Below are positions 3,388-22,003 of a stretch of 64,000 nucleotides of DNA, piece after piece. The DNA is from Minisyncoccia bacterium (GTDB lineage: Bacteria > Patescibacteriota > Minisyncoccia > Phycocordibacterales > UBA9973): assembly GCA_044229265.1 (NCBI GenBank), contig JBGATK010000003.1, positions 24,638 to 88,637 of the forward strand, read 5' to 3'. A program made the position numbers and the translations under genes. Below the pieces are notes generated by a model, which worked only from the letters and a program-made list of their open reading frames with translations, had not been told where the DNA came from and made no database searches. How positions within the stretch are numbered: position 1 is the first letter of the stretch; the number at the start of each line of letters is the position of its first letter.

Positions 3388-4221
3388 ATGAAAAAAATAC
3401 GAAAAATCAAGAAGAAAAATAAAAAATTTGGATTAAAACTTTATGGCATATTTGTATTTACTGTGATAACTAGTATGATGGGTAGTTTTTATGCTCTAGG
3501 TTTCAGGGTAGAAGATATGCTTGATATTTCTTTGTATCAAAATCTAGCCAACCCTTCAGTAAAAGTAGTTCGAGTATATGCTGGCCTTCGCAAAGAAGAA
3601 ATAGCCGAGGTTTTTTACAAAAATTTAAATTGGACAGAGAAAGAAGCCGAGGAATTTGCTAAAGCAAATTCCTCGGCCAATTCCTCCCCTATCGAAGGCA
3701 AATTACTACCAAAAACATATCTAATTAACAAAGACGCTACACCTGCCGAAGTTCAAAATATTATGCTTACGGAATTTGAAAAAGCTTTCACTAAAATTCA
3801 AGCCAAATCTAACAAAAAAATAATAAACGAAGAAATAATTATTAAAATCGCTTCTATAATACAACGTGAAGCTTCTGGTAAAAAAGACATGCCACTTATA
3901 TCCGGCATAATCTGGAATCGTTTTTGGCTAGGAATGAAGCTCGAAATGGATTCCACTATTCAGTATGTAAAAGGCAGTGAAGAAGCTGGCTGGTGGAAGC
4001 AAATTTCTGTGAAAGACAAAAAAATAGATTCGCCTTATAATACCTATCTATACGAAGGTTTTCCTCCAGGAGCCATATCAAACCCTAGCTTAGACGCCAT
4101 AAATGCCGCTTACAACCCGACTAAAACCAAATGCATCTTTTACATACATGACAAGCAAAAAAGAACTCACTGCAGTGAGACTTACGAAGAACACAAAAAG
4201 AATGTGGAAGAATATTTATAA
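3388..4221 (+). CDS. mltG: Endolytic murein transglycosylase MltG (YceG-like)
   Basis: N-terminal transmembrane segment and a C-terminal ...FPPGAISNPSLDAINAAYNP...EH motif block typical of MltG. Start placed at MKKIRK (3388) rather than the ORF's first Met. Confidence 0.65.
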   Translation: MKKIRKIKKKNKKFGLKLYGIFVFTVITSMMGSFYALGFRVEDMLDISLYQNLANPSVKVVRVYAGLRKEEIAEVFYKNLNWTEKEAEEFAKANSSANSSPIEGKLLPKTYLINKDATPAEVQNIMLTEFEKAFTKIQAKSNKKIINEEIIIKIASIIQREASGKKDMPLISGIIWNRFWLGMKLEMDSTIQYVKGSEEAGWWKQISVKDKKIDSPYNTYLYEGFPPGAISNPSLDAINAAYNPTKTKCIFYIHDKQKRTHCSETYEEHKKNVEEYL

Positions 4222-4334: not shown

Positions 4335-4407
4335 GGGCCGTTAGCTCATCTGGTAGAGCACCTCATTTGCAATGAGGGGGTGGCAGGTTCGAGTCCTGTA
4401 CGGTCCA
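4335..4407 (+). tRNA. tRNA-Ala (anticodon TGC)
   Basis: GGGCCGT acceptor stem with the G3:U70 Ala identity pair, D-arm GCTCATCTGGTAGAGC, anticodon loop TTTGCAA, T-arm GCAGG-TTCGAGT-CCTGT. Confidence 0.85.
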
Positions 4408-5930
4408 CAGTTTAGAACATCGTTAGAAAAATCGGGCGCGCGCTTGCGCGCGAGAATGGAGGGCGAAGGGGTGAAATCCGAATGCGGGTTGTGGGATATA
4501 GCGAATTCGGTCGGTGGGCAAAATGAGACATAGACGGATTTTCCACACAATTGGGGGTTCGTTCCAATTTTTTTGAAATAGTCTTTAATTTCAAAAAAAT
4601 TGTCGCTTGAAATCAATTGCGTGGCTTTTTTCATATCTAAAATCCATTCCCGCAAGGGTTCAATCCAAATATTTCTCTCCTCTCGGGCAGAGTCCATTTT
4701 GTGAGCGAGAGATACTTTTTGTTTCAAAAGCTCGTCTTTTTTGGCTAGGTAGTTTGCTTTTGGTATATCGCCATCAAGAAAAAGGGTAATCAAATTATCT
4801 AGCTTTTGTTGTATCTCTCGCTCACGCTCTCTCATCTGCCCGACAGCACTTCCCGACGATACTTTTACTTCTTTTTCCCATTCGTCTGTTTGCTTGGTCA
4901 TATACTCAATCCATTCGTCGGGAAGTGAAATCTGCTGAAGCCGTTCTTTGAGTTGCAAGACGAGCTTGTCTTCCCGCAAATATCCTTGCAAACAATTTTT
5001 CTTTTTCGTACAGCGATAATACCGATACTTCGTACCAAAGCGATTGGTCGCCCATTGTGCGGTTATCATTCCTCCGCACTCACCACAACGGAAAAGTCCT
5101 GTGAAAGGAAAATTGTGTCCAACTTTTGTTTTGCGGGGTCTTGCTCGCTCTTGCAACCTTTTTTGAACGGCTTCAAATAGCTCGGGATAAATAATTGGCG
5201 CAAAGCTGCCTTGATGCCATTCGTCTCTGTGTTTTACTAAACCGATATATGCTTTGCTCGTGAGCAGAGAGACGATGGCGGCTTTGCCAAGTGGCGTTCC
5301 ACATTTCGTGATGACTCCATGTTCCGCCAAAAAGTGCGAGAGTGATAAGAGGGTGTGCTTACCCGTGGCGAATTCGGTATATCCTTTGAGAATAATTCTC
5401 GCGAGTACAGGATCAGGCTCAATGTTCCTCGTTCTTGGATTGTTCACATAGCCACGCGGTCCTTTGGTAAGCCACTCTCCACGCCTGACTTTTTGGCGAA
5501 TTCCTCGCTCAACATTTTGCTTTAAATTGTCAGAATAATACTTGGATTGTCCGAACGCCACTTGAAGCATAAAGAGTCCTTGCGGGGTAGGTTCAAACCA
5601 AAATGTCGGAAAGCGCAAAGACACAATCTTTTGAGTATCTACTGCGTAGATAACTCGTCCACCGTCAATTGAGTTTCTTGCTAATCTATCGGGATGCCAT
5701 GCGAGAATACCTGCTCCATCCATTGACTCTATGCGCGACATCATTTCACCAAACTTTTGACGACCCGGTGTCTTTGCGCTTTTTGACTCTTGAAATTCTT
5801 CTAGAATTTCAAGATTTTCTTTACGCGCGAACTCACGAAGCTCAAAGAGTTGAGCTTCAATACTCATGACTTGTTTGTCGTCTTCCTCCGTACTCTTTCG
5901 TGCGTATAGAAAATATTTTGGTTTGTTCAT
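4341..5930 (-). CDS. Large serine recombinase
   Basis: N-terminal YARKST...Q...SIEAQ catalytic motif, recombinase domain, CGECGG zinc-ribbon and coiled-coil. Start placed at MNKPKY (5930). The ORF has no stop until 4341, so it reads through the left IR and into tRNA-Ala; the true C-terminus is uncertain. Confidence 0.8.
   Translation of the reverse strand: MNKPKYFLYARKSTEEDDKQVMSIEAQLFELREFARKENLEILEEFQESKSAKTPGRQKFGEMMSRIESMDGAGILAWHPDRLARNSIDGGRVIYAVDTQKIVSLRFPTFWFEPTPQGLFMLQVAFGQSKYYSDNLKQNVERGIRQKVRRGEWLTKGPRGYVNNPRTRNIEPDPVLARIILKGYTEFATGKHTLLSLSHFLAEHGVITKCGTPLGKAAIVSLLTSKAYIGLVKHRDEWHQGSFAPIIYPELFEAVQKRLQERARPRKTKVGHNFPFTGLFRCGECGGMITAQWATNRFGTKYRYYRCTKKKNCLQGYLREDKLVLQLKERLQQISLPDEWIEYMTKQTDEWEKEVKVSSGSAVGQMREREREIQQKLDNLITLFLDGDIPKANYLAKKDELLKQKVSLAHKMDSAREERNIWIEPLREWILDMKKATQLISSDNFFEIKDYFKKIGTNPQLCGKSVYVSFCPPTEFAISHNPHSDFTPSPSILARKRAPDFSNDVLNCGPYRTRTCHPLIANEVLYQMS
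4405..4520. repeat. Left inverted repeat (X, 116 bp) flanking the serine recombinase gene
   Basis: Reverse complement equals 5987..6102 with one mismatch. GC-rich, with internal palindromes (CGCGCGCTTGCGCGCG; CCGAAT...ATTCGG). Overlaps the last 3 nt of tRNA-Ala. Confidence 0.9.
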
Positions 5931-5986
5931 ATATTTGTTTTTAGATTTGAAAAAAGAATCCGTGTTTGTCTCGTTTCTGAGCCCTA

Positions 5987-6102
5987 TGCCCACCGACCGA
6001 ATTCGCTATATTCCACAACCCGCATTCGGATTTCACCCCTTCGCCCTCCATTCTCGCGCGCAAGCGCGCGCCCGATTTTTCTAACGATGTTCTAAACTGT
6101 GG
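5987..6102. repeat. Right inverted repeat (X') of the recombinase unit
   Basis: Reverse complement of 4405..4520. Confidence 0.9.
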
Positions 6103-6356
6103 TCTAATCATTACCAATGCGCGAACTTTTTTTGAGGACCAAATGAATGATTGTGTACGCTCCACGCAAAGTGTTAATTTAAATTAATTCTTACGCTCTA
6201 CTAATATCTTAATTCTATCAAATTCAACAGATGCCGAGCAAGCTCGGCATCCTGCCCGAGTCCCATCGCAATCCTCCGCCCACTTCGCTTTGCGAAGTGT
6301 TGGCGGACAAGCATTCTTTATGATTCGGCGGGGGTTTCTTTTGATTTGGTATGGGG
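6098..6356. repeat. Long inverted repeat IR-A (about 259 bp), left copy
   Basis: Reverse complement of 14030..14286. Directly abuts X', overlapping it by 5 bp (TGTGG). GC-rich hairpins GATGCCGAGCAAGCTCGGCATC and CACTTCGCTTTGCGAAGTG. Confidence 0.9.
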
Positions 6357-6453
6357 GATGGGGTGAGGAAAAAAGTTTGACAAACCTATTCAATACGTTT
6401 AATATCATAGCATACTCGCTCTTTGAAAAACGATAGTTTGTTTATATATAATT

Positions 6454-9808: not shown

Positions 9809-10726
9809 CTAAGCGATTTTTTTAGCAAATTTCTTTGTAAACTCTCTCGGCGACATACGCAGAGCCGTGTGTATTCGAGAGGTATTGTAAATATGTATGG
9901 TGTGGTAAATCTCATAAACCAGTTCTCCTAAAGTATCAAACCTGTTGGTATCTCCAAGATCAATCTTGAACTTATCATAGTAGCTTTCTTGATACCCATT
10001 CTGCCAAGGTGATCCTTTAGCTGACATTGAAATTTGGATACCACCAGATGTGCAAAAATCTTGAAATATTTCTGAAGTATATTCACTGCCTTGATCGGAG
10101 TGAATGATATCCGGTCGTGGATGATCCATGAGGGCACTGACTAAAGCTTGCAACACTAGAGCGCTAGAATGATTTGCTAGTACACAAACTCCGACTATCT
10201 CTCGATTGTAAATATCTTCAACTGTAGCCACATAAATGAACCTATTCTTGTACCAGAGATATGTAAAATCTGTCACCCAGATTTGATTCATTCTTGTTAG
10301 CGGAGTGGTAATTAACAGATTCGGATATTCTTCATAATCCGTTGATTTTACTCGTTTCCACGGCTTCCTGTGCCTTCTATATGGCTTGATGCCATAGATC
10401 TTCATTACCCGAAGTATTCTTTTCTTGTTTAGCTTGAGCTCTATTGCCAGCCTCTTGTGTCCATAACTAGGAAAAGTCTCCCACACCTTCTCTATTTGTT
10501 TTTTAATTTCTCCATCTTCACTTCTCTTCTTGCTTTTGTAATACAAAGAACTTCTAGAAACTTCAAATATCTCATGAAGCTTCTTATGGTTTACCGCCAC
10601 CCCTTTTTTTGTCCAACCCCTAGTTGGACTGTGAGCTCTCCGATGATTTGCTTTAATTCCTTGTTTTCTTTGGTGAGCTTCATTATCTCTTTGGATGTTG
10701 TTCCTTCGACACCACTTTTTAACCAT
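9809..10726 (-). CDS. IS3 transposase OrfB (DDE integrase core), probably expressed as an OrfAB fusion by -1 frameshift
   Basis: Integrase-core motifs (WVTDFTY..., HSDQGSEYTS, SPWQNG). The frame is -1 relative to OrfA. Confidence 0.8.
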   Translation of the reverse strand: MVKKWCRRNNIQRDNEAHQRKQGIKANHRRAHSPTRGWTKKGVAVNHKKLHEIFEVSRSSLYYKSKKRSEDGEIKKQIEKVWETFPSYGHKRLAIELKLNKKRILRVMKIYGIKPYRRHRKPWKRVKSTDYEEYPNLLITTPLTRMNQIWVTDFTYLWYKNRFIYVATVEDIYNREIVGVCVLANHSSALVLQALVSALMDHPRPDIIHSDQGSEYTSEIFQDFCTSGGIQISMSAKGSPWQNGYQESYYDKFKIDLGDTNRFDTLGELVYEIYHTIHIYNTSRIHTALRMSPREFTKKFAKKIA

Positions 10727-10854
10727 TCGTATATCGTAGTTTTACTAATGCCATGTTCCTCTGATATTTCTTTGATTGTTTTACCACTCGTCTTTACTCT
10801 TTCCAATATTTGATTTTTTAGATCTTTACCCACTCTAAATTTTTTATTAGACAT
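10591..10854 (-). CDS. IS3 transposase OrfA (HTH)
   Basis: HTH motif ISKTTIYEW and a leucine-zipper-like region; ends at the frameshift window. Confidence 0.75.
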   Translation of the reverse strand: MSNKKFRVGKDLKNQILERVKTSGKTIKEISEEHGISKTTIYEWLKSGVEGTTSKEIMKLTKENKELKQIIGELTVQLGVGQKKGWR

Positions 10855-10947
10855 ATGCTCAATTAAAATTACTGGTATATCGACTATTATACCGCTAATC
10901 TTGGTTGAAAATGTGTCTTAATTTTGGGGTACCTGTCAGAACGAATA

Positions 10948-11115
10948 ATGAATTTATTTTCTAAAAAATCTACAATCACGAATGATGAAGTAGAAAAACT
11001 TTTGCATTGCTCGGATGCAACGGCAACGAGATATCTCTCACAACTAGAAAAAGAAAATAAGATAAAAAGAAATGGGAAAGAGCGAGGTAAGTATGTATCA
11101 TATTCTAAAATCTAG
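10948..11115 (+). CDS. small winged-helix/HTH protein or C-terminal fragment of an IS-disrupted gene (55 aa)
   Basis: The listed ORF starts inside the IS terminal repeat. Internal Met at 10948. An HTH-like stretch ATRYLSQLEKENKIKR. Confidence 0.35.
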   Translation: MNLFSKKSTITNDEVEKLLHCSDATATRYLSQLEKENKIKRNGKERGKYVSYSKI

Positions 11116-11172: not shown

Positions 11173-11532
11173 CTAACTACCTAAAAAATTATTTCTGTTA
11201 TCATCGTTATCAAATAACGGTACATATTCCATATCTTCTGCGGTTGGGAACGCAAGTTTTGTTGTATTTCTTATGTTTGCCCATTTTTCATCATCAATCT
11301 GGTTTAGCTCAATGTTCCTTAGCTTGTTGTCTTCAAGTATTTTTAAGACTTCCACAGATTCTTTGTTCTCTTCAAACCATTTGGAAAATTGTCTGTATTC
11401 CTCCAGTTTTTGTTTCCCGTTCTTGAGTGTAGAGATTTGATCATAATGATGTATGAAAAGCCTGTCTAAAAATGGAACATTTTGGATGTAAGTTTCAAAT
11501 AGCTTCAAAAATTTTTCATTTTGCGTATTCAT
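11173..11532 (-). CDS. hypothetical small protein, paralog A (119 aa)
   Basis: Shares motifs with 12139..12456 (F/Y..P..HHY, WFE(E/K)NKES.VVL, C-terminal (P/G)LFDN). Confidence 0.55.
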   Translation of the reverse strand: MNTQNEKFLKLFETYIQNVPFLDRLFIHHYDQISTLKNGKQKLEEYRQFSKWFEENKESVEVLKILEDNKLRNIELNQIDDEKWANIRNTTKLAFPTAEDMEYVPLFDNDDNRNNFLGS

Positions 11533-11548
11533 GATTTTTGTATTTTAA

Positions 11549-11600
11549 GTGAATAATAAGTTTTCAGAAAAATAGCTTTCGCTGAAAACTTATTATTCAC
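11549..11600. promoter_or_regulatory. Perfect 19-bp inverted repeat (GTGAATAATAAGTTTTCAG / CTGAAAACTTATTATTCAC) with a 14-nt spacer, just upstream of paralog A
   Basis: Seen in sequence. Role as a terminator, operator or leader structure is unresolved. Confidence 0.5.
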
Positions 11601-11617
11601 TGTATTTATCAAAGTAC

Positions 11618-11813
11618 CTTATATCTGTATATTCTGCCTTTTTCCCTGTATTGTCAATCTAATTTAGGGAGCAGAAAGGTGCGCGAAAGGGAGGGTGGGT
11701 AAGCACCTGTATTCTGCGCCTTCAGGCATTTCCGCTAGGGTGTTCAGGGCTAAATGACGAGCGCCACGGTGTATTGCAAATTAATTCTCGAAGACGAAAG
11801 TCATACTCTCTAA
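11618..11813 (+). repeat. Structured repeat R, copy 1 (about 196 nt); candidate ncRNA
   Basis: Conserved 5' block (CCTTATATCTGTATATTCTGCC...TGTATTGTCAATC), a variable stem-loop, then a 90-nt conserved 3' block shared with 13496..13713. Confidence 0.6.
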
Positions 11814-12138
11814 TGAAATTAGTAGCTAGAGTATGCGGCTTATTGACATTTCCATTTAAGTCCATCATGTCTCCAGTAATACATAGAATATCAATCGAAG
11901 TTCTTGCTCTAGAATATAAAAATTCCTACAATCTCTCTAAGAACAATTTAATTTTATCATTATCCAACTTTATACCTTTACTTAGATCTTCACTTAAATG
12001 GAAATCCGTTAGATGCAAAATATATATTGGGTTTGACATTTATTTATTGTATAGTTCTTTCAATAATTGAGAAAATTAATTTAATATAATAAAAAAGGTC
12101 ATCTATATGATGACCTTAAATAAATCTTAAGAATTAAA

Positions 12139-12456
12139 TTAATTATCAAAAAGACCTATAGGCTCTTCAACACTAGCCAATGTTGGCATCATGAATTTTA
12201 TCTTGCCTCGTTCTAAATTAATCTCATTTCTTCTATTTTGAATCAACTTCTGTATTTGATTTTCGTGCTTATCAAAAACAGATAAAACAACCTGTGATTC
12301 CTTATTTTTTTCGAACCACGTATCAAATGAATCAAAATCTGCCAATTTAGTTTCAGGATCCAATTCTACATAATAATGATAAAGTAGTACTCCATTATAT
12401 GGAAAACGCGTTAAGTAAGCTTCTAACATTGTTAGAAAAATCTGTTCTTTGTGCAT
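12139..12456 (-). CDS. hypothetical small protein, paralog B (105 aa)
   Basis: Paralog of 11173..11532. Confidence 0.55.
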   Translation of the reverse strand: MHKEQIFLTMLEAYLTRFPYNGVLLYHYYVELDPETKLADFDSFDTWFEKNKESQVVLSVFDKHENQIQKLIQNRRNEINLERGKIKFMMPTLASVEEPIGLFDN

Positions 12457-12497
12457 TTTATAAAATTTTAGCCGTTGGGCTTCTATAAAAACATAGA

Positions 12498-12544
12498 TTT
12501 ACCACAGCCAAAAAGCTTTATCATTACCTTTTGGCTGTGGTAAA
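12498..12544. promoter_or_regulatory. Perfect 16-bp inverted repeat (TTTACCACAGCCAAAA / TTTTGGCTGTGGTAAA) upstream of paralog B
   Basis: Seen in sequence. Same arrangement as the hairpin upstream of paralog A but with a different sequence. Confidence 0.5.
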
Positions 12545-12665
12545 TCCAATACCATTTACAAGGTTCAAATATATGATTTACATTAATTATGCCAAAAGCT
12601 AAAATATAAATCAAGTAATCTCAGGTGATTAAAAATATAACGCAATAAAAGGAGAAGAGATCAAA

Positions 12666-12884
12666 GTGCTTAGATTCCTCCGTTATTATTCAGTCTTTAA
12701 TGTTGAAGACATTGAAGGTGCTGAATTAGACCTAAACCGGTTTAAAGAGGTAAAATTGACCGATAGCTTGATAGAAAACAGCTCTTCTTATCTTATGAAT
12801 GTCCTCAAAGAAGACCCGAAATATATCTTCAAGATTTCGGCTGAAGCTCAAAAGGCTGTGAACCTAATAATAGGTGCTCATTGA
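12666..12884 (+). CDS. hypothetical protein (72 aa), GTG start with an AAGGAG ribosome-binding site
   Basis: ORF with a well-spaced Shine-Dalgarno-like AAGGAG. Confidence 0.4.
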   Translation: MLRFLRYYSVFNVEDIEGAELDLNRFKEVKLTDSLIENSSSYLMNVLKEDPKYIFKISAEAQKAVNLIIGAH

Positions 12885-13495
12885 GTTGATTAATTGTAAT
12901 TTTAATTAGGAATTGCTATAATTTAACAAAGTTATAATTTTGCTCATTGTCAGTTAAAATTAATAATAGGACAGAGGTATATATATAAATATTATTTATA
13001 TATGTATATAAAATATTCATTATCAAGCTTATGATTATGAAAATAATCTTAATTTTCCTTGGATTTTATAGTAAGATAGATTATATTCGCCTAATTTTAT
13101 TGAACAGGATAGAAAAAGACGAAGCAGTCAATATTTTCAACCTGAACTCAATTTTCAAGTCAATATTATTGATAGTAGTAACTAAAATAAAAGTGGGCAC
13201 CTGTTAGGTACCCACAACGCTCATAAGAGCAGGTGGAGTATTAAATGTAATACCAAGTGTTCTAATGCAATTCTGAGTTGCCTTAGATTTTCAGCTTTAG
13301 TATTATCATTCCTCCACTTTTGGAGAAAAGTAAAAATACTCATAAGAACAAATTTTACATTTCTCCAGTTATCTCAAAAGCGCTAATAATTACATTAGCG
13401 CTTTTATTTTTTAATCATTAGTAGAGAAGAAACTGTTCAGAAACAAAAAAGCCACCTAGATGGTGGTGGTGCAATGAGGGGTGGAATGTCGCGTG

Positions 13496-13713
13496 CCTTA
13501 TATCTGTATATTCTGCCTTTTCCTCTGTATTGTCAATCAAGGGAGGCAACTTCGTGCACGCAAGGGTGGGAGCCCCGACGTAATCGTCGGAGCTGGGGGC
13601 AAGCACGAGGCTTCTGCGCCTTCAGGCATTTCCGCTAGGGTGTTCAGGGCTAAATGACGAGCGCCACGGTGTATTGCAAATGAGTTCTCGAAGACGAAAG
13701 TCATACTCTCTAA
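13496..13713 (+). repeat. Structured repeat R, copy 2 (about 218 nt)
   Basis: Same conserved 5' and 3' blocks as copy 1. The variable stem carries compensatory changes (GGTGC/GCACC in copy 1, CGTGC/GCACG in copy 2). Confidence 0.6.
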
Positions 13714-13865
13714 CAGCTATATTGAAAAAGAGGATGGGGGTTGGCGTAACCGCTGGGGGAAGGAACACTTCCTTCCCCCAACTAGTGGTGTGCAATTTTC
13801 TTTTCCTGAACGGCTCATTTCTTCCCATTTTAGCCGTTCCTTGTAAAATGCACACCTCCTAGGCT

Positions 13866-13900
13866 GGCGCTCGAGCCCTAGCGGAAATGCCTGAGGCGGA
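13866..13900 (-). repeat. Partial inverted copy of the R core (R3)
   Basis: CCCTAGCGGAAATGCCTGAGGCG is the reverse complement of the R core CGCCTTCAGGCATTTCCGCTAGGG. Confidence 0.5.
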
Positions 13901-14029
13901 TGCCGAGGGTGCCACCCTTTAGCACTGAACACAATACTACAGAAATGAAAGAAGGCTCAATATAAAAACTGAATTTTGCATTTAAATTTCACACTTCCTT
14001 CTTTGAAGGAAGTTGACCGAGCCCATCGC

Positions 14030-14286
14030 CCATACCAAATCAAAAGAAACCCCCGCCGAATCATAAAGAATGCTTGTCCGCCAACACTTCGCAAAGCGAA
14101 GTGGGCGGAGGATTGCGATGGGACTCGGGCAGGATGCCGAGCTTGCTCGGCATCTGTTGAATTTGATAGAATTAAGATATTAGTAGAGCGTAAGAATTAA
14201 TTTAAATTAACACTTTGCGTGGAGCGTACACAATCATTCATTTGGTCCTCAAAAAAAGTTCGCGCATTGGTAATGATTAGACCACA
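14030..14286. repeat. Long inverted repeat IR-A', right copy
   Basis: Reverse complement of 6098..6356. The outer end ...GATTAGACCACA mirrors the X'/IR-A junction. Confidence 0.9.
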
Positions 14287-14503
14287 CTTATAAAAAAGAG
14301 TCTTCGCAAGAAGGCCTTTTTTATTGTGTGGAACGTAAGCAAAGTATCTATTTACTTTGCGTCAGGACGAGAAAAGCTTTTCGTTACAAATTTTGATTAA
14401 AATCAAAATTTGTCGAAAAGGTATACTGTTCCTGTAAGGAAAGAGTCCTCTACTGTCCACAAATTTTAAAGCCATTTCTATGATGTAGAAATGGCTTTGT
14501 TTT

Positions 14504-21396: not shown

Positions 21397-21670
21397 TGAA
21401 AAAAATTTAAAAGGTTAGAAATGAACTTGGGAGAATTCCCTATCACTTAAAATTATTGCATATTTAAAGATAAAAGTCAATGGCTTGTGGAAAACCGCGC
21501 CTTTGGCCGGGGAAACACAAAACCCCCTTGCGGGGGCTTTGTGGGCACTTATGTTGTTTCGAATAATGTAAGGCTAATGCCTCACACTCACACAAAGAGT
21601 ATAGCACATCTGAAATAAAAAAGCAAATTTATAAAAGAAAAATCCCCTTTCGGGGATTTTTCGTGTTTTA

Positions 21671-21976
21671 TTTTGTGGCTATAAGCCGAATTCTGTTTTC
21701 GTTTTTAAGCGAATATGGCAATTTGTCTAGGCCTAAAATTACTCTTAGGCTCAAGCGATTCTTCCTGCTTCGCCAAGGCTACGCAGGACACGATCTTGCA
21801 CACGCGTAAGGATTTTGCCGTTTCACTCCCACTAAAGGGATTCGTCACTGTTCGCACCTCGTGGATTGCTCCAGATGGGAATTACCCATTACGTTTAATC
21901 CCTCGACTAAGCTCGGGACTATGTGTTCGGACTTTCCTAATCCCACCGAAGTGAGACTTAGCCATACACCACAAAA
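21671..21976 (-). ncRNA. rnpB: RNase P RNA, bacterial type, reduced size (about 306 nt)
   Basis: Minus strand reads ...AGGAAAGUCCGAACACAUAG... (CR-I), ...GGAGUGAAACGGC..., and ...ACAGAAUUCGGCUUAUAGCC (CR-V). P4 shows compensatory CCGAA/UUCGG in place of the E. coli CCGGG/CCCGG. P1 is UUUUGUGG/CCACAAAA. Terminator follows at 21640..21663. Confidence 0.78.
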
Positions 21977-22003
21977 CTTTTTTAGTTTAACATATAAAAA
22001 TAT

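What the first reader, a model, noticed from the sequence alone, without database searches (positions are those of the whole stretch)
11618..13900. About 200-nt repeated element (R1, R2, plus an inverted partial R3) with compensatory base changes in a variable stem: candidate novel structured RNA
R1 (11618-11813) and R2 (13496-13713) share a 45-nt 5' block and a 90-nt 3' block (TTCTGCGCCTTCAGGCATTTCCGCTAGGGTGTTCAGGGCTAAATGACGAGCGCCACGGTGTATTGCAAAT...TCTCGAAGACGAAAGTCATACTCTCTAA). Their central segments differ.

In both copies the central segment is closed by complementary pairs that co-vary: GGTGC...GCACC in R1 versus CGTGC...GCACG in R2, and GCAGAA...TTCTGC in R1 versus GAGGC...GCTTC in R2. 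R2 also has extra internal hairpins (CCGACG-TAAT-CGTCGG). Covariation of this kind points to selection on RNA structure.

A 24-nt reverse-complement copy of the core (13866-13900) lies 225 nt downstream of R2, allowing a long-range stem. Read on the minus strand, each copy is followed by a strong hairpin (the 19-bp inverted repeat at 11549-11600 for R1; CCACC...GGTGG followed by a T-run at 13455-13475 for R2).

The sequence does not resemble RNase P (whose gene is found elsewhere in the window), tmRNA, SRP, group I/II intron cores or any riboswitch I can recognise.
Basis: seen in the sequence. Interest (0 to 1): 0.7.

Follow-up and report, generated by a model that had tools for sequence, protein, structure and literature searches.

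The report
New large structured RNA on CPR islands
The two repeats and the inverted piece are parts of one large, intricately folded non-coding RNA of about 460 or more bases (plus a broken second copy); it matches no catalogued RNA family and recurs in ultra-small (CPR) bacteria next to a DNA-rearranging enzyme on mobile genomic islands.

Summary
R1, R2 and the inverted R3 are real. R2 and R3 are the 5' domain and the 3' arm of one element (window 13539-~13995, possibly running on to ~14290). R1 is a truncated 5' copy.

I found at least 27 distinct homologues, nearly all in Patescibacteria/CPR assemblies. None matches any Rfam 15 family, phage or plasmid record, or paper I could find.

Nine helices keep pairing through compensatory changes. 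G-U cells outnumber A-C cells 46 to 8, and GAAA and UUCG loops occur, so the plus strand is favoured. No reading frame is conserved on either strand. A purine tract mirrors one hairpin strand and covaries with it, which fits a triple helix.

The element starts at the stop codon of a small winged-helix gene. It ends at a 120-290-bp perfect inverted repeat. It is linked in both directions to a large serine recombinase cassette inserted at tRNA 3' ends.

Function is not shown. My best guess is an RNA component or leader of the island's recombination module.

The parts
13539..13995 (+). It starts at AAGGGAG and ends in a U-rich stretch just before the hairpin at 13994-14015.
   Evidence: nhmmer with the family profile matches 13559-13992 (E=9e-74). 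It is collinear with at least 23 homologues. MFE -178 kcal/mol, z=-5.1.
13552..13608 (+). P1 stem (UCGUGC 13552-13557 with GCACGA 13603-13608). It encloses the G-rich junction (ACGCAAGGGUGGG ... GGGGGCAA) and hairpin H1.
Evidence: the inner five pairs are 95-100% paired in 21 sequences, with UA/CG/GC, GC/AU and UA/CG exchanges.
13571..13594 (+). H1, an optional variable hairpin (CCGACG-UAAU-CGUCGG core).
   Evidence: 14 distinct sequences, 12 of them with perfect 9-12-bp stems (window 6 bp, L016 interrupted), always capped by a UA(A/C/U)U loop. H1 is absent in short-form homologues and in R1.
13617..13641 (+). P2 5' arm (CGCCUUCAGGCAUUUCCGCUAGGGU), the conserved core of R2.
   Evidence: It pairs with 13875-13898; 25 pairs, 95.8% of cells paired, 4 pairs with double changes, and one position showing AU:10, GU:5, GC:7.
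13875..13898 (+).
   Evidence: The 19-mer is exact in 11 genome loci and the 20-mer in 13 metagenome loci.
13642..13658 (+). P3 hairpin (GUU..GAC) with the conserved loop AGGGCUAAA.
   Evidence: helix 2: 95.6% paired, with GU/GC and UA/CG exchanges.
13659..13665 (+). P4 5' strand (GAGCGCC). It pairs with 13866-13872 (GGCGCUC) and closes the central multi-helix domain. P2, P3 and P4 form a three-way junction.
   Evidence: helix 3: CG:17 / UA:5 exchange. The outer two pairs are Watson-Crick in one subtype and tandem G.A in the other.
13866..13872 (+). P4 3' strand (GGCGCUC).
13693..13702 (+). P5 GNRA hairpin (GAC-GAAA-GUC).
   Evidence: 19 homologous sequences have GCG-AAA-GC-type hairpins (GCGAAAGC, GCGGAAGC, GCGAAGGC). 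The window stem is a compensatory variant (GAC/GUC for GCG/CGC).
13730..13740 (+). T tract (GAGGAUGGGGG), a purine-rich strand that is the mirror image of the P8 purine strand.
   Evidence: 134 of 140 positions fit the code G opposite G-C and A/U opposite A-U, in 14 distinct combinations. Only 1 of 5000 permutations reached this value. A direct (non-mirror) reading scores 51.
13755..13779 (+). P8 hairpin (GGGGGAAGGAA-cac-UUCCUUCCCCC).
   Evidence: helix 2: 99.5% paired, with an AU/GC swap at two adjacent pairs in 8 of 21 sequences. Recovered by RNAalifold.
13787..13856 (+). P9' (GGUGUGCA 13787-13794 with UGCACACC 13849-13856) enclosing P9 (GAACGGCU 13808-13815 with AGCCGUUC 13832-13839).
   Evidence: RNAalifold recovers both helices. 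Together with P8, 8 of the 28 predicted pairs have double compensatory changes. One search lists 9 P9 variants with 8-12-bp stems.
13899..14015 (+). 3' tail: the conserved GGAUGCCGA-GGGUG...CUUUAGCAC motif and a covarying hairpin at 13994-14015 (ACUUCCUUC-UUUG-AAGGAAGU).
   Evidence: Alignments. A UUCG loop in L014 replaces GAAU/GAGG/GAAG in the GCC-NNNN-GGU hairpin (alignment). No conserved terminator is seen here.
11614..11813 (+). R1, a truncated 5' copy (shared 46-nt upstream block, AGGGAG, P1 GGUGC/GCACC, short junction without H1, P2 5' arm, P3, P4 5' strand, P5). It lacks every 3' partner.
   Evidence: nhmmer matches 11688-11818 to profile positions 32-170 only. A promoter-like site lies at 11606-11633. 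Its central segment is the short form seen in L004, L019 and L024.
10924..11115 (+). Remnant (63 aa) of the small winged-helix gene that abuts the 5' end of the RNA in homologous loci.
   Evidence: Pfam HTH_24. tblastn finds the homologue immediately upstream of the RNA in 11 distinct other loci. In 5 of 7 look-ups of homologues the RNA lay downstream.
14022..14290 (+). B, a GC-rich structured segment directly 3' of the RNA core and the right copy of a 99% inverted repeat. It ends ...GATTAGACCACA.
   Evidence: The same arrangement, with 96-100% identical copies, occurs in L002, L003, L009, L010, L014, L026, L031, L032, L038 and L039.
6095..6362 (-). B', the inverted copy of B. It leads into A and the recombinase gene.
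4341..5933 (-). Large serine recombinase gene, bracketed by a 116-nt perfect inverted repeat (A 5987-6102, A' 4405-4520). Its 3' end abuts the tRNA-Ala gene at 4335-4408.
   Evidence: Pfam Resolvase, Recombinase and Zn_ribbon_recom. Inverted repeat. tRNA. More than 6600 homologues.

Best explanation
SHOWN. R2 and R3 are the 5' domain and the 3' arm of one conserved, highly structured non-coding element. Its core is about 460 nt here and up to about 560 nt in relatives with extra domains. R1 is a truncated 5' copy of it. The element folds as follows: a 25-bp long-range helix (P2) and helix P4 close a central multi-helix domain (P5 GNRA hairpin, P6/P7, P8, P9'/P9). A separate 5' domain (P1, a G-tract junction and the variable hairpin H1) and a conserved 3' tail flank it. 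The family is confined to CPR/Patescibacteria-type genomes and is not in Rfam 15. It always sits in the same place. Its 5' end abuts the stop codon of an upstream gene, usually a 54-250-aa winged-helix protein. Its 3' end abuts a 120-290-bp segment (B) that recurs as a perfect inverted copy 4-9.5 kb away. A large serine recombinase (LSR) cassette, inserted at the 3' end of a tRNA gene, lies next to one B copy.

INFERRED. It is an RNA made from the window's plus strand, co-transcribed with or processed from the upstream gene. A purine tract probably lies in the groove of hairpin P8 as a triple helix.

Most likely function (not shown). It is the RNA component of the island's recombination module, in the order wHTH - RNA - att-bearing B - LSR. 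It would act either as a structured leader that couples transcription across the B|A junction to LSR expression only when core and LSR are juxtaposed, or as a protein-bound cofactor of the wHTH protein or LSR that controls integration, excision or inversion.
For: Homologues. A 19/20-mer scan gave 11 genome loci and 13 metagenome loci. Protein-guided look-ups added 8 more. nhmmer E-values run from 1e-40 to 1e-157.

Structure.
- P2/P3/P4: 92.1% of cells paired, against 28-41% when partners are slid. Six pairs have double changes, and 0 of 500 shuffles reach the observed values on four of five measures.
- P1/P8: 93.8% paired, 9 pairs and 45 cells with double changes, 0 of 500 shuffles.
- H1: 14 sequence variants, 12 with perfect 9-12-bp stems, under a constant UAHU loop. 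P9: 9 variants.
- RNAalifold recovers P8, P9' and P9.
- Compensated insertions occur in P2: L031 CCUUCGGGC/GCCCGAAGG and L007 CGGCC/GGCCG (alignment).

Strand. G-U/U-G 46 cells against A-C/C-A 8 cells. GAAA loops in P5. UUCG replaces GNRN in L014. The stop codon of the upstream plus-strand gene abuts AAGGGAG.

Not coding. The plus-strand frame is open for only 14-60 codons, and the minus-strand frame for 20-140 codons with only about 15 residues conserved.

Not known. Rfam finds nothing at E<=10, ARAGORN finds no tmRNA, and phage and plasmid searches find nothing.

Context. wHTH lies next to the RNA in 11 distinct loci; the window has only a remnant about 500 nt upstream of R1. The RNA lay downstream of the wHTH gene in 5 of 7 look-ups. 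In 3 of 3 look-ups of LSR homologues at 65-78% identity, the RNA core was found 4-10 kb away with B/B' and A/A' repeats. Two LSR subfamilies about 35% identical are both linked to the RNA. In L032/33 the order wHTH-RNA-B-A-LSR is co-directional. LSR cassettes abut the 3' ends of tRNA-Ala, -Ser, -Glu, -Arg, -Asn and -Thr.
Against: There is no transcript evidence: no RNA-seq, no mapped ends, and no conserved promoter or terminator.

In the window the minus strand folds with an even better z-score (-7.7 against -5.1). A minus-strand intrinsic terminator follows the element (13469-13452).

Thirteen of the 25 P2 pairs never vary. That would also suit a protein-recognised DNA repeat.

Seven pair columns contain A-C cells.

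Several RNA loci show no LSR within the 4-8 kb available (L009, L029, L035), so the link is strong but not obligate.

Homologues were partly ascertained with the P2 sequence itself, which inflates its apparent invariance.

The functional part rests on position only.
Confidence: 0.6

Rival explanations
1. DNA-level element. The two P2 arms and the other palindromes are protein-binding inverted repeats of the recombination machinery, for example an inverton flanked by 25-bp repeats, accessory sites of an attP region, or transposon ends. They would not be RNA helices.
For: P2 is a 24-25-bp near-perfect inverted repeat spaced 235-350 bp apart, which is the size range of invertible promoters. Its sequence is almost invariant across phyla (13 of 25 pairs never vary). 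It lies in a recombination module with an LSR and other long inverted repeats. Symmetric changes in both arms would also arise from binding by a dimeric protein. Both strands fold equally well.
Against: All 27 or more homologues are collinear; none has the inter-arm segment flipped. Sequences outside and between the arms are conserved and form at least 8 further helices with compensatory changes. Substitutions are strand-asymmetric (G-U 46 against A-C 8), with an AU, GU, GC series. GNRA and UUCG tetraloops occur. Serine recombinase sites are about 40-50 bp dyads, not arms 300 bp apart (background knowledge).
Confidence: 0.1
2. The folded molecule is single-stranded DNA of the island's plus strand, for example a single-strand initiation or origin signal, or a folded recombination substrate analogous to integron attC sites. 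It would not be RNA.
For: The mirror-repeat relation between the T tract and P8 is the code of the antiparallel purine-motif triplex. To my knowledge that motif is well documented for DNA and poorly tolerated by RNA strands. GCGAAAGC is also a famously stable DNA mini-hairpin found in ssDNA phage origins (background knowledge). The strand asymmetry of wobble pairs fits any single strand.
Against: No rolling-circle Rep, relaxase or HUH gene was seen in the islands examined. Serine recombinases act on duplex DNA (background knowledge). The element is always co-oriented with the stop codon of an upstream gene and starts exactly there, as expected for a transcript. A UUCG/GNRA loop exchange is typical of RNA.
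Confidence: 0.07
3. It is a real structured RNA that has nothing to do with recombination. It would be a cargo or host-like ncRNA, for example a defence- or maintenance-related RNA or an RNA that assembles into a particle like ROOL/GOLLD. It would merely sit at the island end, or be the preferred landing site of the islands.
For: Some loci have the RNA but no LSR within reach (L009, L029, L035). In L011, L022 and L026 it lies in front of tRNA-Thr and prfB. Cargo is rich in restriction-modification and other defence genes. Large ornate RNAs of unknown function are typically phage- or island-borne and lie near tRNAs (background knowledge).
Against: Its position is fixed relative to the B repeat and the wHTH gene, whatever the cargo. 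The association with two divergent LSR subfamilies is reciprocal. Its 3' end coincides to the nucleotide with the start of the inverted repeat.
Confidence: 0.2
4. The repeats are the shared 5' regions of duplicated protein-coding genes or small ORFs.
For: AAGGGAG followed 6-9 nt later by ATG, GTG or TTG resembles a ribosome-binding site and start codon in most homologues. ORFs of 54-77 aa overlap R2 on both strands. Minus-strand ORFs of at least 90 aa overlap the 3' arm in 8 loci.
Against: From that start codon the frame stops after 6-34 codons, at non-homologous positions. The 'SGISAR' frame is cut to 14-30 codons in L002, L004, L008, L010 and L020. The minus-strand frame is open for only 20-38 codons in L014, L006, L032 and L038, and only the roughly 15 residues encoded by the invariant helix are shared. 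Indels are not multiples of three. No Pfam hits were found for the neighbouring small ORFs scanned.
Confidence: 0.02

Closest known systems
Large 'ornate' bacterial ncRNAs of unknown or recently found function that travel with mobile DNA (GOLLD, ROOL, and HEARO, which is the IscB omega-RNA)
   Same: Several hundred nucleotides long. Many covarying helices with optional domains. A patchy, horizontally spread distribution. Location on islands or prophages, often next to tRNA genes. Truncated copies occur.
   Different: No sequence or structure match to any of them: Rfam 15 finds nothing even at E<=10. The host range is CPR bacteria. The neighbouring protein is a large serine recombinase and a small wHTH protein, not IscB/TnpB or phage genes. 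The architecture differs: a 25-bp closing helix, a G-tract junction and a mirror-repeat purine tract.
IS110/IS1111 bridge (seek) RNAs
   Same: A structured RNA encoded in the non-coding region beside a recombinase gene at the edge of a mobile element, close to the recombination junction.
   Different: Those recombinases are DEDD/RuvC-like with a Tnp domain, whereas this one is a large serine recombinase (Pfam). Bridge RNAs are about 150-200 nt with two guide-bearing internal loops, whereas this RNA is at least 460 nt. I found no complementarity to the junctions that recurs across loci (only informal inspection). The RNA is often 4-10 kb from the recombinase.
Tn916-type read-through across the joint of an excised circular element, and junction promoters of IS circles
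   Same: The gene order wHTH-RNA-B|A-LSR means that transcription from the RNA side can reach the recombinase only when the two ends are juxtaposed. This is the case in L032/33, or in a circle with the predicted attP.
   Different: Those systems need no large structured RNA. Here neither circular forms nor read-through has been observed.
Gin/Hin/Cin-type invertible segments (Mu G segment) and 2-micron-plasmid flip-flop
   Same: A segment bounded by inverted repeats with a serine recombinase gene just outside one repeat. Both relative orientations of core and recombinase are seen among genomes.
   Different: The recombinase is a 520-550-aa large serine recombinase, not a 190-aa invertase. The repeats are 120-290 bp and perfect. 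The segment is 4-9.5 kb of variable cargo. The two states could equally come from insertion of the LSR cassette at either B end.
RNA triple helices (MALAT1/PAN ENE, telomerase RNA, SAM-II and preQ1-II riboswitches)
   Same: A single strand appears to dock along a hairpin stem, and the strand and the stem covary.
   Different: To my knowledge the known natural examples are pyrimidine-motif (U.A-U, C+.G-C, parallel). Read on the plus strand, this one follows the antiparallel purine-motif code (G.G-C, A.A-U, U.A-U) over 9-10 consecutive triples. On the minus strand it would be a C-rich pyrimidine motif.

Membership tests
Any Rfam 15 family (4227 models; to my knowledge these include GOLLD, ROOL, HEARO, OLE, raiA, RNase P, tmRNA, SRP, 6S, group I and II introns, riboswitches) | Covariance-model score at or above the family's gathering threshold | tested here: not met
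   Whole window at gathering threshold: only RNase P and three tRNAs, all elsewhere. At E<=10 the region 11300-14500 and the homologues L003 4800-5750 and L032 7400-8500 give only chance-level miRNA or sRNA hits at no more than about half their thresholds, none on the core helices.
tmRNA | tRNA-like domain formed by the 5' and 3' ends (T-arm, acceptor stem, CCA end) plus a tag reading frame | tested here: not met
   ARAGORN finds no tmRNA in the window or in 24 loci. There is no GGUUCGA T-arm in the core. The region between P4 and the T tract is not conserved as a reading frame.
Group I / group II self-splicing introns | Conserved catalytic core (P3-P7-P8 with a G-binding site; or domain V with the AGC triad and a GUGYG 5' end) and insertion within a host gene | tested here: not met
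   No hit to Intron_gpI, group-II-D1D4 or the domain V/VI models at E<=10. The 5' end is AAGGGAG and sits at the stop codon of a gene. No hairpin has the domain V bulge or AGC pattern (inspection). No exons flank it.
IS110-type bridge RNA | Encoded in the non-coding end of an element whose recombinase is a DEDD (RuvC-like) plus Tnp-domain protein | tested here: not met
   The associated recombinase has the Resolvase, Recombinase and Zn_ribbon_recom domains.
IS110-type bridge RNA | Two internal loops whose sequences are complementary to the target and donor DNA and covary with them | tested here: inconclusive
   I only inspected the junction sequences of 8 loci informally. No recurrent complementarity was noticed. 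No systematic test was run.
Inverton (invertible promoter) | Short inverted repeats flanking a 150-750-bp segment found in both orientations | tested here: not met
   The repeats and spacing fit. However, all 27 or more homologues have the inter-arm segment in the same orientation and are collinear through it. Within-population heterogeneity cannot be tested with these tools.
Retron / DRT-type ncRNA | Adjacent reverse-transcriptase gene | tested here: not met
   No RT domain appears among the called genes of 13 loci with Pfam annotation, or in the window neighbours scanned.
Riboswitch / cis-regulatory leader | Located in the 5' UTR of the regulated gene, with an expression platform (terminator or RBS-sequestering helix) | tested here: inconclusive
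   The downstream gene varies (tRNA-Thr/prfB, membrane protein, LSR). No conserved terminator follows the core. The size (at least 460 nt) and the position after a stop codon are atypical. A leader role for the LSR in the juxtaposed state is not excluded.
Structured non-coding RNA (generic criteria) | Several helices maintained by compensatory and wobble-compatible substitutions beyond shuffled and slid controls, with no conserved ORF | tested here: met
   for pairing and covariation; for the absence of a conserved ORF.

The most novel reading that the evidence does not exclude
The RNA is an obligatory partner of the large serine recombinase. It would be either a scaffold or guide that selects or synapses the att sites (tRNA 3' ends and the B|A junction), or the switch that sets recombination direction together with the small wHTH protein. 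That would be the first RNA-dependent serine recombinase system. It would be built on an RNA containing a 9-10-triple purine-motif triple helix, a tertiary motif not yet documented in a natural RNA.
Probability: 0.08. Interest if true: 0.95.

Novelty: categorically new. Interest (0 to 1): 0.78.

Why it matters
Bacterial structured RNAs longer than about 300 nt are rare. Almost every class that has been solved turned out to be a ribozyme, an RNP core or a guide; HEARO, for example, became the IscB omega-RNA.

This family is large, richly structured and absent from Rfam. It sits at a fixed place in the recombination module of tRNA-targeting islands that carry restriction-modification and other cargo through CPR bacteria. 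That is a huge, uncultured and poorly understood part of the bacterial tree whose mobile elements are barely described.

If the RNA acts with the large serine recombinase, that would change how these widely used genome-engineering enzymes are thought to be controlled. If the T-P8 relation is a purine-motif triplex, it would add a new natural RNA (or ssDNA) tertiary motif. Even as a function-unknown RNA, it gives a precise marker for a whole class of CPR islands and a concrete set of experiments.

Tried and rejected
- Known RNA families. Rfam at gathering threshold and at E<=10 on the window and two homologues found nothing. ARAGORN found no tmRNA.
- Annotated relatives. blastn (distant mode) against phage and plasmid collections found no match.
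- Viral contigs. Two IMG/VR contigs (L012, L013) carry the 19-mer, but nhmmer matches only those 19 nt, inside a 183-codon ORF. I treated this as chance. L017 likewise matches only the 20-mer.
- Protein-coding readings on both strands were rejected.
- SD-plus-start-codon leader peptide after AAGGGAG. Stop positions are not conserved and frames run 6-34 codons, so I rejected it as a conserved ORF. A short uORF is not excluded.
- MITE with 25-bp terminal repeats. Rejected because the sequences outside the arms are conserved too.
- Pairing of the T tract with C-rich loops in B, or with a mirror pyrimidine tract. No covariation was found, so rejected (inspection).
Both are possible in some sequences but could not be generalised.
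- The B end as a tRNA-like T-arm and acceptor. There is no conserved T-stem. It reads better as an att half-site or a promoter-like AAAAAAGTTCGCGC..TATAAT box.
- Thermodynamics to choose the strand. Uninformative, because both strands have strongly negative z-scores.
- Literature. Six full-text searches found no description of this RNA or of these islands.
- I did not build a covariance model. The size limit (about 190 positions) excludes the long-range helices, and no public collection could be searched with it.

Full report
**1. What is in the window**

The repeats are as described. Two blocks are shared by R1 and R2. A 46-nt block lies at 11614-11659 and 13493-13538 (93% identical). A 117-nt block lies at 11697-11813 and 13597-13713 (94%). 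They flank a centre that differs by a 25-nt hairpin and several substitutions. BLAST E-values within the window are 3e-47 and 2e-14. R3 (13876-13898) is the reverse complement of the core of both copies, 19 nt exact and 24 nt at 96%. The region is GC-rich (40-48%) in a genome of about 34% GC.

**2.

The 19-mer shared by R1, R2 and R3 occurs in 11 species-representative genomes. Nearly all are Patescibacteria/CPR: Paceibacterota, Nomurabacteria, Saccharibacteria and Doudnabacteria. One is a bin labelled Woesearchaeota. A 20-mer occurs in 13 metagenome contigs.

In many of these loci the motif occurs once on each strand, 290-350 nt apart, just as R2 and R3 do here. Alignment shows one collinear conserved element. 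It runs from an AAGGGAG box, through the R2 sequence and a central domain, to the R3 sequence and about 100 nt beyond.

In the window this is 13539-~13995; an nhmmer profile matches 13559-13992 at E=9e-74. R1 matches only profile positions 32-170, so it is a truncated 5' copy. A second, independently truncated copy exists in L023.

R1's centre is not a degraded R2. It is the short form that lacks hairpin H1, as found in L004, L019, L024 and L039, and its stem is intact. R1 therefore probably descends from a different functional copy. Its flanks were later homogenised with R2, or it was joined to R2 by a rearrangement.

**3. Is it a structured RNA?**

I cut out the well-aligned modules and counted pairs.

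- *P2, P3 and P4.* These are the long-range helix, the adjacent hairpin, and the helix that closes the central domain. In 23 distinct sequences 92.1% of cells are standard pairs, against 28-41% when partners are slid by 1-3 columns. Six pairs have changes on both sides. No shuffle out of 500 reaches the observed values on four of five measures.
- *One position of P2* shows the full series A-U (10 sequences), G-U (5) and G-C (7).
- *L032 and L039* carry further double changes: CAUUACC/GGUAAUG and CUAUGG/CCAUAG.
- *Insertions in one arm* are matched in the other: L031 CCUUCGGGC/GCCCGAAGG and L007 CGGCC/GGCCG.
Exchanges include UA:10 / CG:9 / GC:1 and UA:14 / CG:7.
- *P8* swaps A-U and G-C at two adjacent pairs in 8 sequences.
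- *H1* has 14 different sequences. Twelve have perfect 9-12-bp stems; the window's stem is 6 bp and L016's is interrupted. All carry a UA(A/C/U)U loop. P9 has 9 variants.
- *RNAalifold* on the central domain of 7 sequences recovers P8, P9' and P9. Compensatory changes occur in 8 of 28 pairs.
- *P5* is a C(GAAA)G-type hairpin. The window's GAC-GAAA-GUC is a compensatory variant of GCG-AAA-GC.

No reading frame is conserved. On the plus strand, the frame through the invariant core is interrupted after 14-30 codons in five loci. On the minus strand, the open frame ranges from 20 to 140 codons, and only the roughly 15 residues encoded by the invariant helix are shared.

**4. Which strand?**

Folding energy does not decide this. 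The z-score is -5.1 for the plus strand and -7.7 for the minus strand.

Four comparative signals favour the plus strand:
- In the counted helices there are 46 G-U/U-G cells against 8 A-C/C-A cells.
- The P5 loop reads GAAA on the plus strand.
- In L014 a UUCG loop replaces the GAAU/GAGG/GAAG loop of a small hairpin 3' of P2.
- The element begins at, or within a few nucleotides of, the stop codon of a plus-strand gene in essentially every locus.

Against this, the window has a minus-strand intrinsic terminator just beyond the 5' end of R2 (13469-13452) and a 25-bp palindrome beyond R1. They are not conserved in homologues. An antisense transcript in this particular genome is not excluded.

**5. 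A possible triple helix**

The T tract is a purine-rich stretch of about 11 nt just 5' of the P6/P7 hairpin (window 13730-13740, GAGGAUGGGGG). It is the mirror image of the purine strand of P8, which lies just 3' of that hairpin (13755-13765, GGGGGAAGGAA).

The two covary. Examples are GGAGAGGGG with GGGGAGAGG, GGAAGGGGG with GGGGGAAGG, GGGUUGGGGGG with GGGGGGAAGGG, and UAGAGUGGGG with GGGGAGAGA.

Across 14 distinct combinations, 134 of 140 positions obey one rule: G opposite G-C, and A or U opposite A-U. Permuting tracts among sequences gives 115.9 +/- 4.0 and reaches the observed value once in 5000 trials. A direct rather than mirror reading scores 51.

A mirror repeat cannot form Watson-Crick pairs with either P8 strand. 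It is the signature of a strand lying antiparallel to the purine strand in a purine-motif triplex. Read on the minus strand, it would be a C-rich pyrimidine-motif triplex. This is an inference from covariation only.

**6. Genomic context**

*(a) The wHTH gene.* The upstream gene is usually a small winged-helix protein. The window keeps a 63-aa remnant (10924-11115; Pfam HTH_24), apparently cut off by an IS3-family insertion (9809-10854). Homologues of this remnant lie immediately 5' of the RNA in 11 distinct loci. The RNA was directly downstream in five cases.

*(b) The B repeat.* The 120-290 nt directly 3' of the core (B; window 14022-14290) recur as a 96-100% identical inverted copy (B') 4-9.5 kb upstream. 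This holds in the window (6095-6362) and in L002, L003, L009, L010, L014, L026, L031, L032, L038 and L039. The repeat begins within a few nucleotides of the end of the core.

*(c) The recombinase cassette.* A large serine recombinase gene (Resolvase, Recombinase and Zn_ribbon_recom domains) lies just outside one B copy. It is bracketed by its own perfect 112-120-nt inverted repeat. The A copy is in the 5' UTR, and the A' copy overlaps the 3' end of the CDS.

*(d) tRNA targets.* The A' end overlaps the 3' end of a converging tRNA gene. The tRNAs are Ala (window), Thr (L026), Ser (L031), Glu (L032), Arg (L038) and Asn (L030).

*(e) The reverse test.* The LSR family has more than 6600 members at E<1e-30. 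Many sit on contigs of only 1.7-2.6 kb, the size of the A-LSR-A' cassette. That pattern suggests a multi-copy, IS-like unit. I looked up three homologues at 65-78% identity on long contigs. All three have the RNA core 4-10 kb away together with the B/B' and A/A' repeats. A second LSR subfamily, about 35% identical, is likewise linked to the RNA in L010, L026, L030 and L031.

*(f) Two arrangements.* In L032/33 the order is wHTH, RNA, B, A, LSR, all co-directional. L034, a third assembly, carries the same wHTH-RNA unit but ends before the LSR position. In the window, L003, L010, L031 and L037-L039, the RNA-bearing end faces away from the LSR. Both relative arrangements therefore exist. They could arise by inversion between the B copies, or by insertion of the LSR cassette at either B end.

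*(g) Junction sequences in the window*:
- tRNA-Ala | A': GGTCCA-CA-GTTTAGAAC
- B | right flank: TTAGACCA-CA-CTTATAAAAAAGAG, followed by a terminator
- internal B' | A: TTAGACCA-CA-GTTTAGAAC

The first two look like the attL and attR of an island integrated at the tRNA. The attP predicted from them is exactly the internal B'|A junction. This is an inference.

*(h) Cargo.* Genes between the B copies vary and often encode restriction-modification or other defence proteins.

**7. How it most likely works**

Shown: this is a conserved, multi-helix fold of one strand at a fixed position in the module wHTH - RNA - B (ending in an att-like site) - A - LSR.

Inferred: the RNA is transcribed with the wHTH gene.

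My best guess has two versions:
- *A leader.* Transcription continues through B and across the B|A junction into the LSR gene only when the two are juxtaposed, either in the direct arrangement or in an excised circle. The structured RNA would control read-through, processing or stability.
- *An RNP component.* The RNA is bound by the wHTH protein and/or the LSR and influences site choice or directionality.

I give about 0.85 that this is a genuine structured-RNA family of these islands. I give about 0.6 to the whole statement, including plus-strand RNA and a recombination-linked role. I give about 0.08 that the LSR actually depends on the RNA.

The rivals are a DNA-level repeat system, a folded single-stranded DNA, an RNA unrelated to recombination, and coding sequence. 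They are set out with their evidence in the rival explanations.

**8. Comparison with known systems**

In kind, it behaves like the large ornate RNAs of mobile elements (GOLLD, ROOL, HEARO). It fails the membership test for all of them and for every other Rfam family. It fails the defining features of tmRNA, group I and II introns, retron RNAs, invertons and IS110 bridge RNAs (see the membership tests).

Six full-text searches found no description of the RNA, of an RNA linked to large serine recombinases, or of these CPR islands.

**9. Verdict**

The finding is real and more interesting than stated. It is a new family of large structured RNA with unusual tertiary features, tied to an undescribed class of tRNA-targeting, serine-recombinase-bearing islands in CPR bacteria.

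Three weaknesses remain. There is no expression data. Homologues were partly ascertained with the most conserved helix. The function is inferred from position only.

Noticed in passing
window 4405-6102 (A' 4405-4520, LSR 4341-5933 minus strand, A 5987-6102); also L010, L031, L032, L037-L039: The large serine recombinase gene is bracketed by a perfect 112-120-nt inverted repeat. One copy lies in the 5' UTR and the other overlaps the 3' end of the CDS. The family has more than 6600 members, and many sit on contigs of only 1.7-2.6 kb, as expected for a multi-copy IS-like cassette. This could be an insertion sequence that uses an LSR as its transposase, or a self-inverting gene.
   Followed up: partly
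window 6095-6362 and 14022-14290; L002, L003, L009, L010, L014, L026, L031, L032, L038, L039: Perfect or near-perfect inverted repeats of 120-290 bp (B/B') bound a 4-9.5-kb segment of variable cargo. The RNA core lies just inside one end and the LSR just outside one copy. Both relative arrangements occur among genomes: direct in L032/33 and opposed in seven others. This is reminiscent of Mu G-segment or 2-micron flip-flop systems, but with a large serine recombinase.
   Followed up: partly
window 4400-4415, 6095-6107, 14283-14300: Junction sequences suggest att sites with a CA crossover. tRNA-Ala|A' reads GGTCCA-CA-GTTTAGAAC, and B|flank reads TTAGACCA-CA-CTTATAAAA. The internal B'|A junction equals the attP predicted from these two. 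LSR cassettes abut the 3' ends of six different tRNA species in other loci.
   Followed up: partly
window 14330-14440; L007 about 4000-4110: Beyond the island's right end and a bidirectional terminator (14300-14325) lies another conserved, hairpin-rich non-coding block (CGTAAGCAAA..TTTGCGTCAGGACGAGAA.. plus a long hairpin). It is shared with L007. There is no Rfam hit at E<=10. It may be a second unannotated RNA.
   Followed up: no
window 13558-13602 and 13541-13543: The 5' domain holds four invariant G-tracts: GGG of the AAGGGAG box, and CGGG, (A/U)GGG and (G/U)GGG around hairpin H1. In short-form homologues three of them are separated by single nucleotides (GGGAGGGUGGG). This could form a G-quadruplex or a docking site for C-rich loops.
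   Followed up: no
L003 5402-5440, L010, L009, L031 (start of B in the long-form subtype): A covarying hairpin (GCGCGCA/UGCGCGC, GUCCGCA/UGCGGGC, CCCGCA/UGCGGG) carries an invariant 19-nt C-rich loop, UUCCUCCCCAGACCCCUCC. The loop is itself a mirror repeat. B therefore also looks like structured RNA.
   Followed up: no
window 9809-10854 (minus strand): An IS3-family element (orfA 10591-10854, orfB 9809-10726) lies immediately upstream of the 63-aa wHTH remnant. It probably truncated that gene.
   Followed up: no
window 11173-11532 and 12139-12456 (both minus strand): Two small paralogous proteins (119 and 105 aa; 31% identity, E=1e-11) have no Pfam match. One lies between the wHTH remnant and R1, the other between R1 and R2. 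They suggest that a duplicated or inserted module created the R1/R2 arrangement.
   Followed up: partly
window 13452-13469 (minus strand), 13376-13405 (plus strand), 11548-11601: A minus-strand intrinsic terminator lies just beyond the 5' end of R2, back to back with a plus-strand terminator. A 25-bp palindrome lies beyond R1. These could end an antisense transcript of the element in this genome. They are not conserved in homologues.
   Followed up: partly
window 21666-21977 (minus strand): The RNase P RNA scores only 102.3 bits against a gathering threshold of 100. It has several shortened or missing helices, consistent with a reduced CPR-type genome.
   Followed up: no
L006 (contig CAZFNY010000136.1, labelled Woesearchaeota archaeon): The closest relative of the window RNA (85-88% identity) sits on a 2.2-kb contig binned as a DPANN archaeon. 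It lacks the segment between P4 and the T tract. This is either mis-binning or transfer between episymbiont lineages.
   Followed up: no
L012 4263-4281, L013 1615-1633 (IMG/VR contigs): Two viral contigs carry the exact 19-mer, but only those 19 nt, inside a 183-codon ORF. About 0.4 chance matches are expected for a collection of that size (my rough estimate), so I treated it as coincidence.
   Followed up: yes
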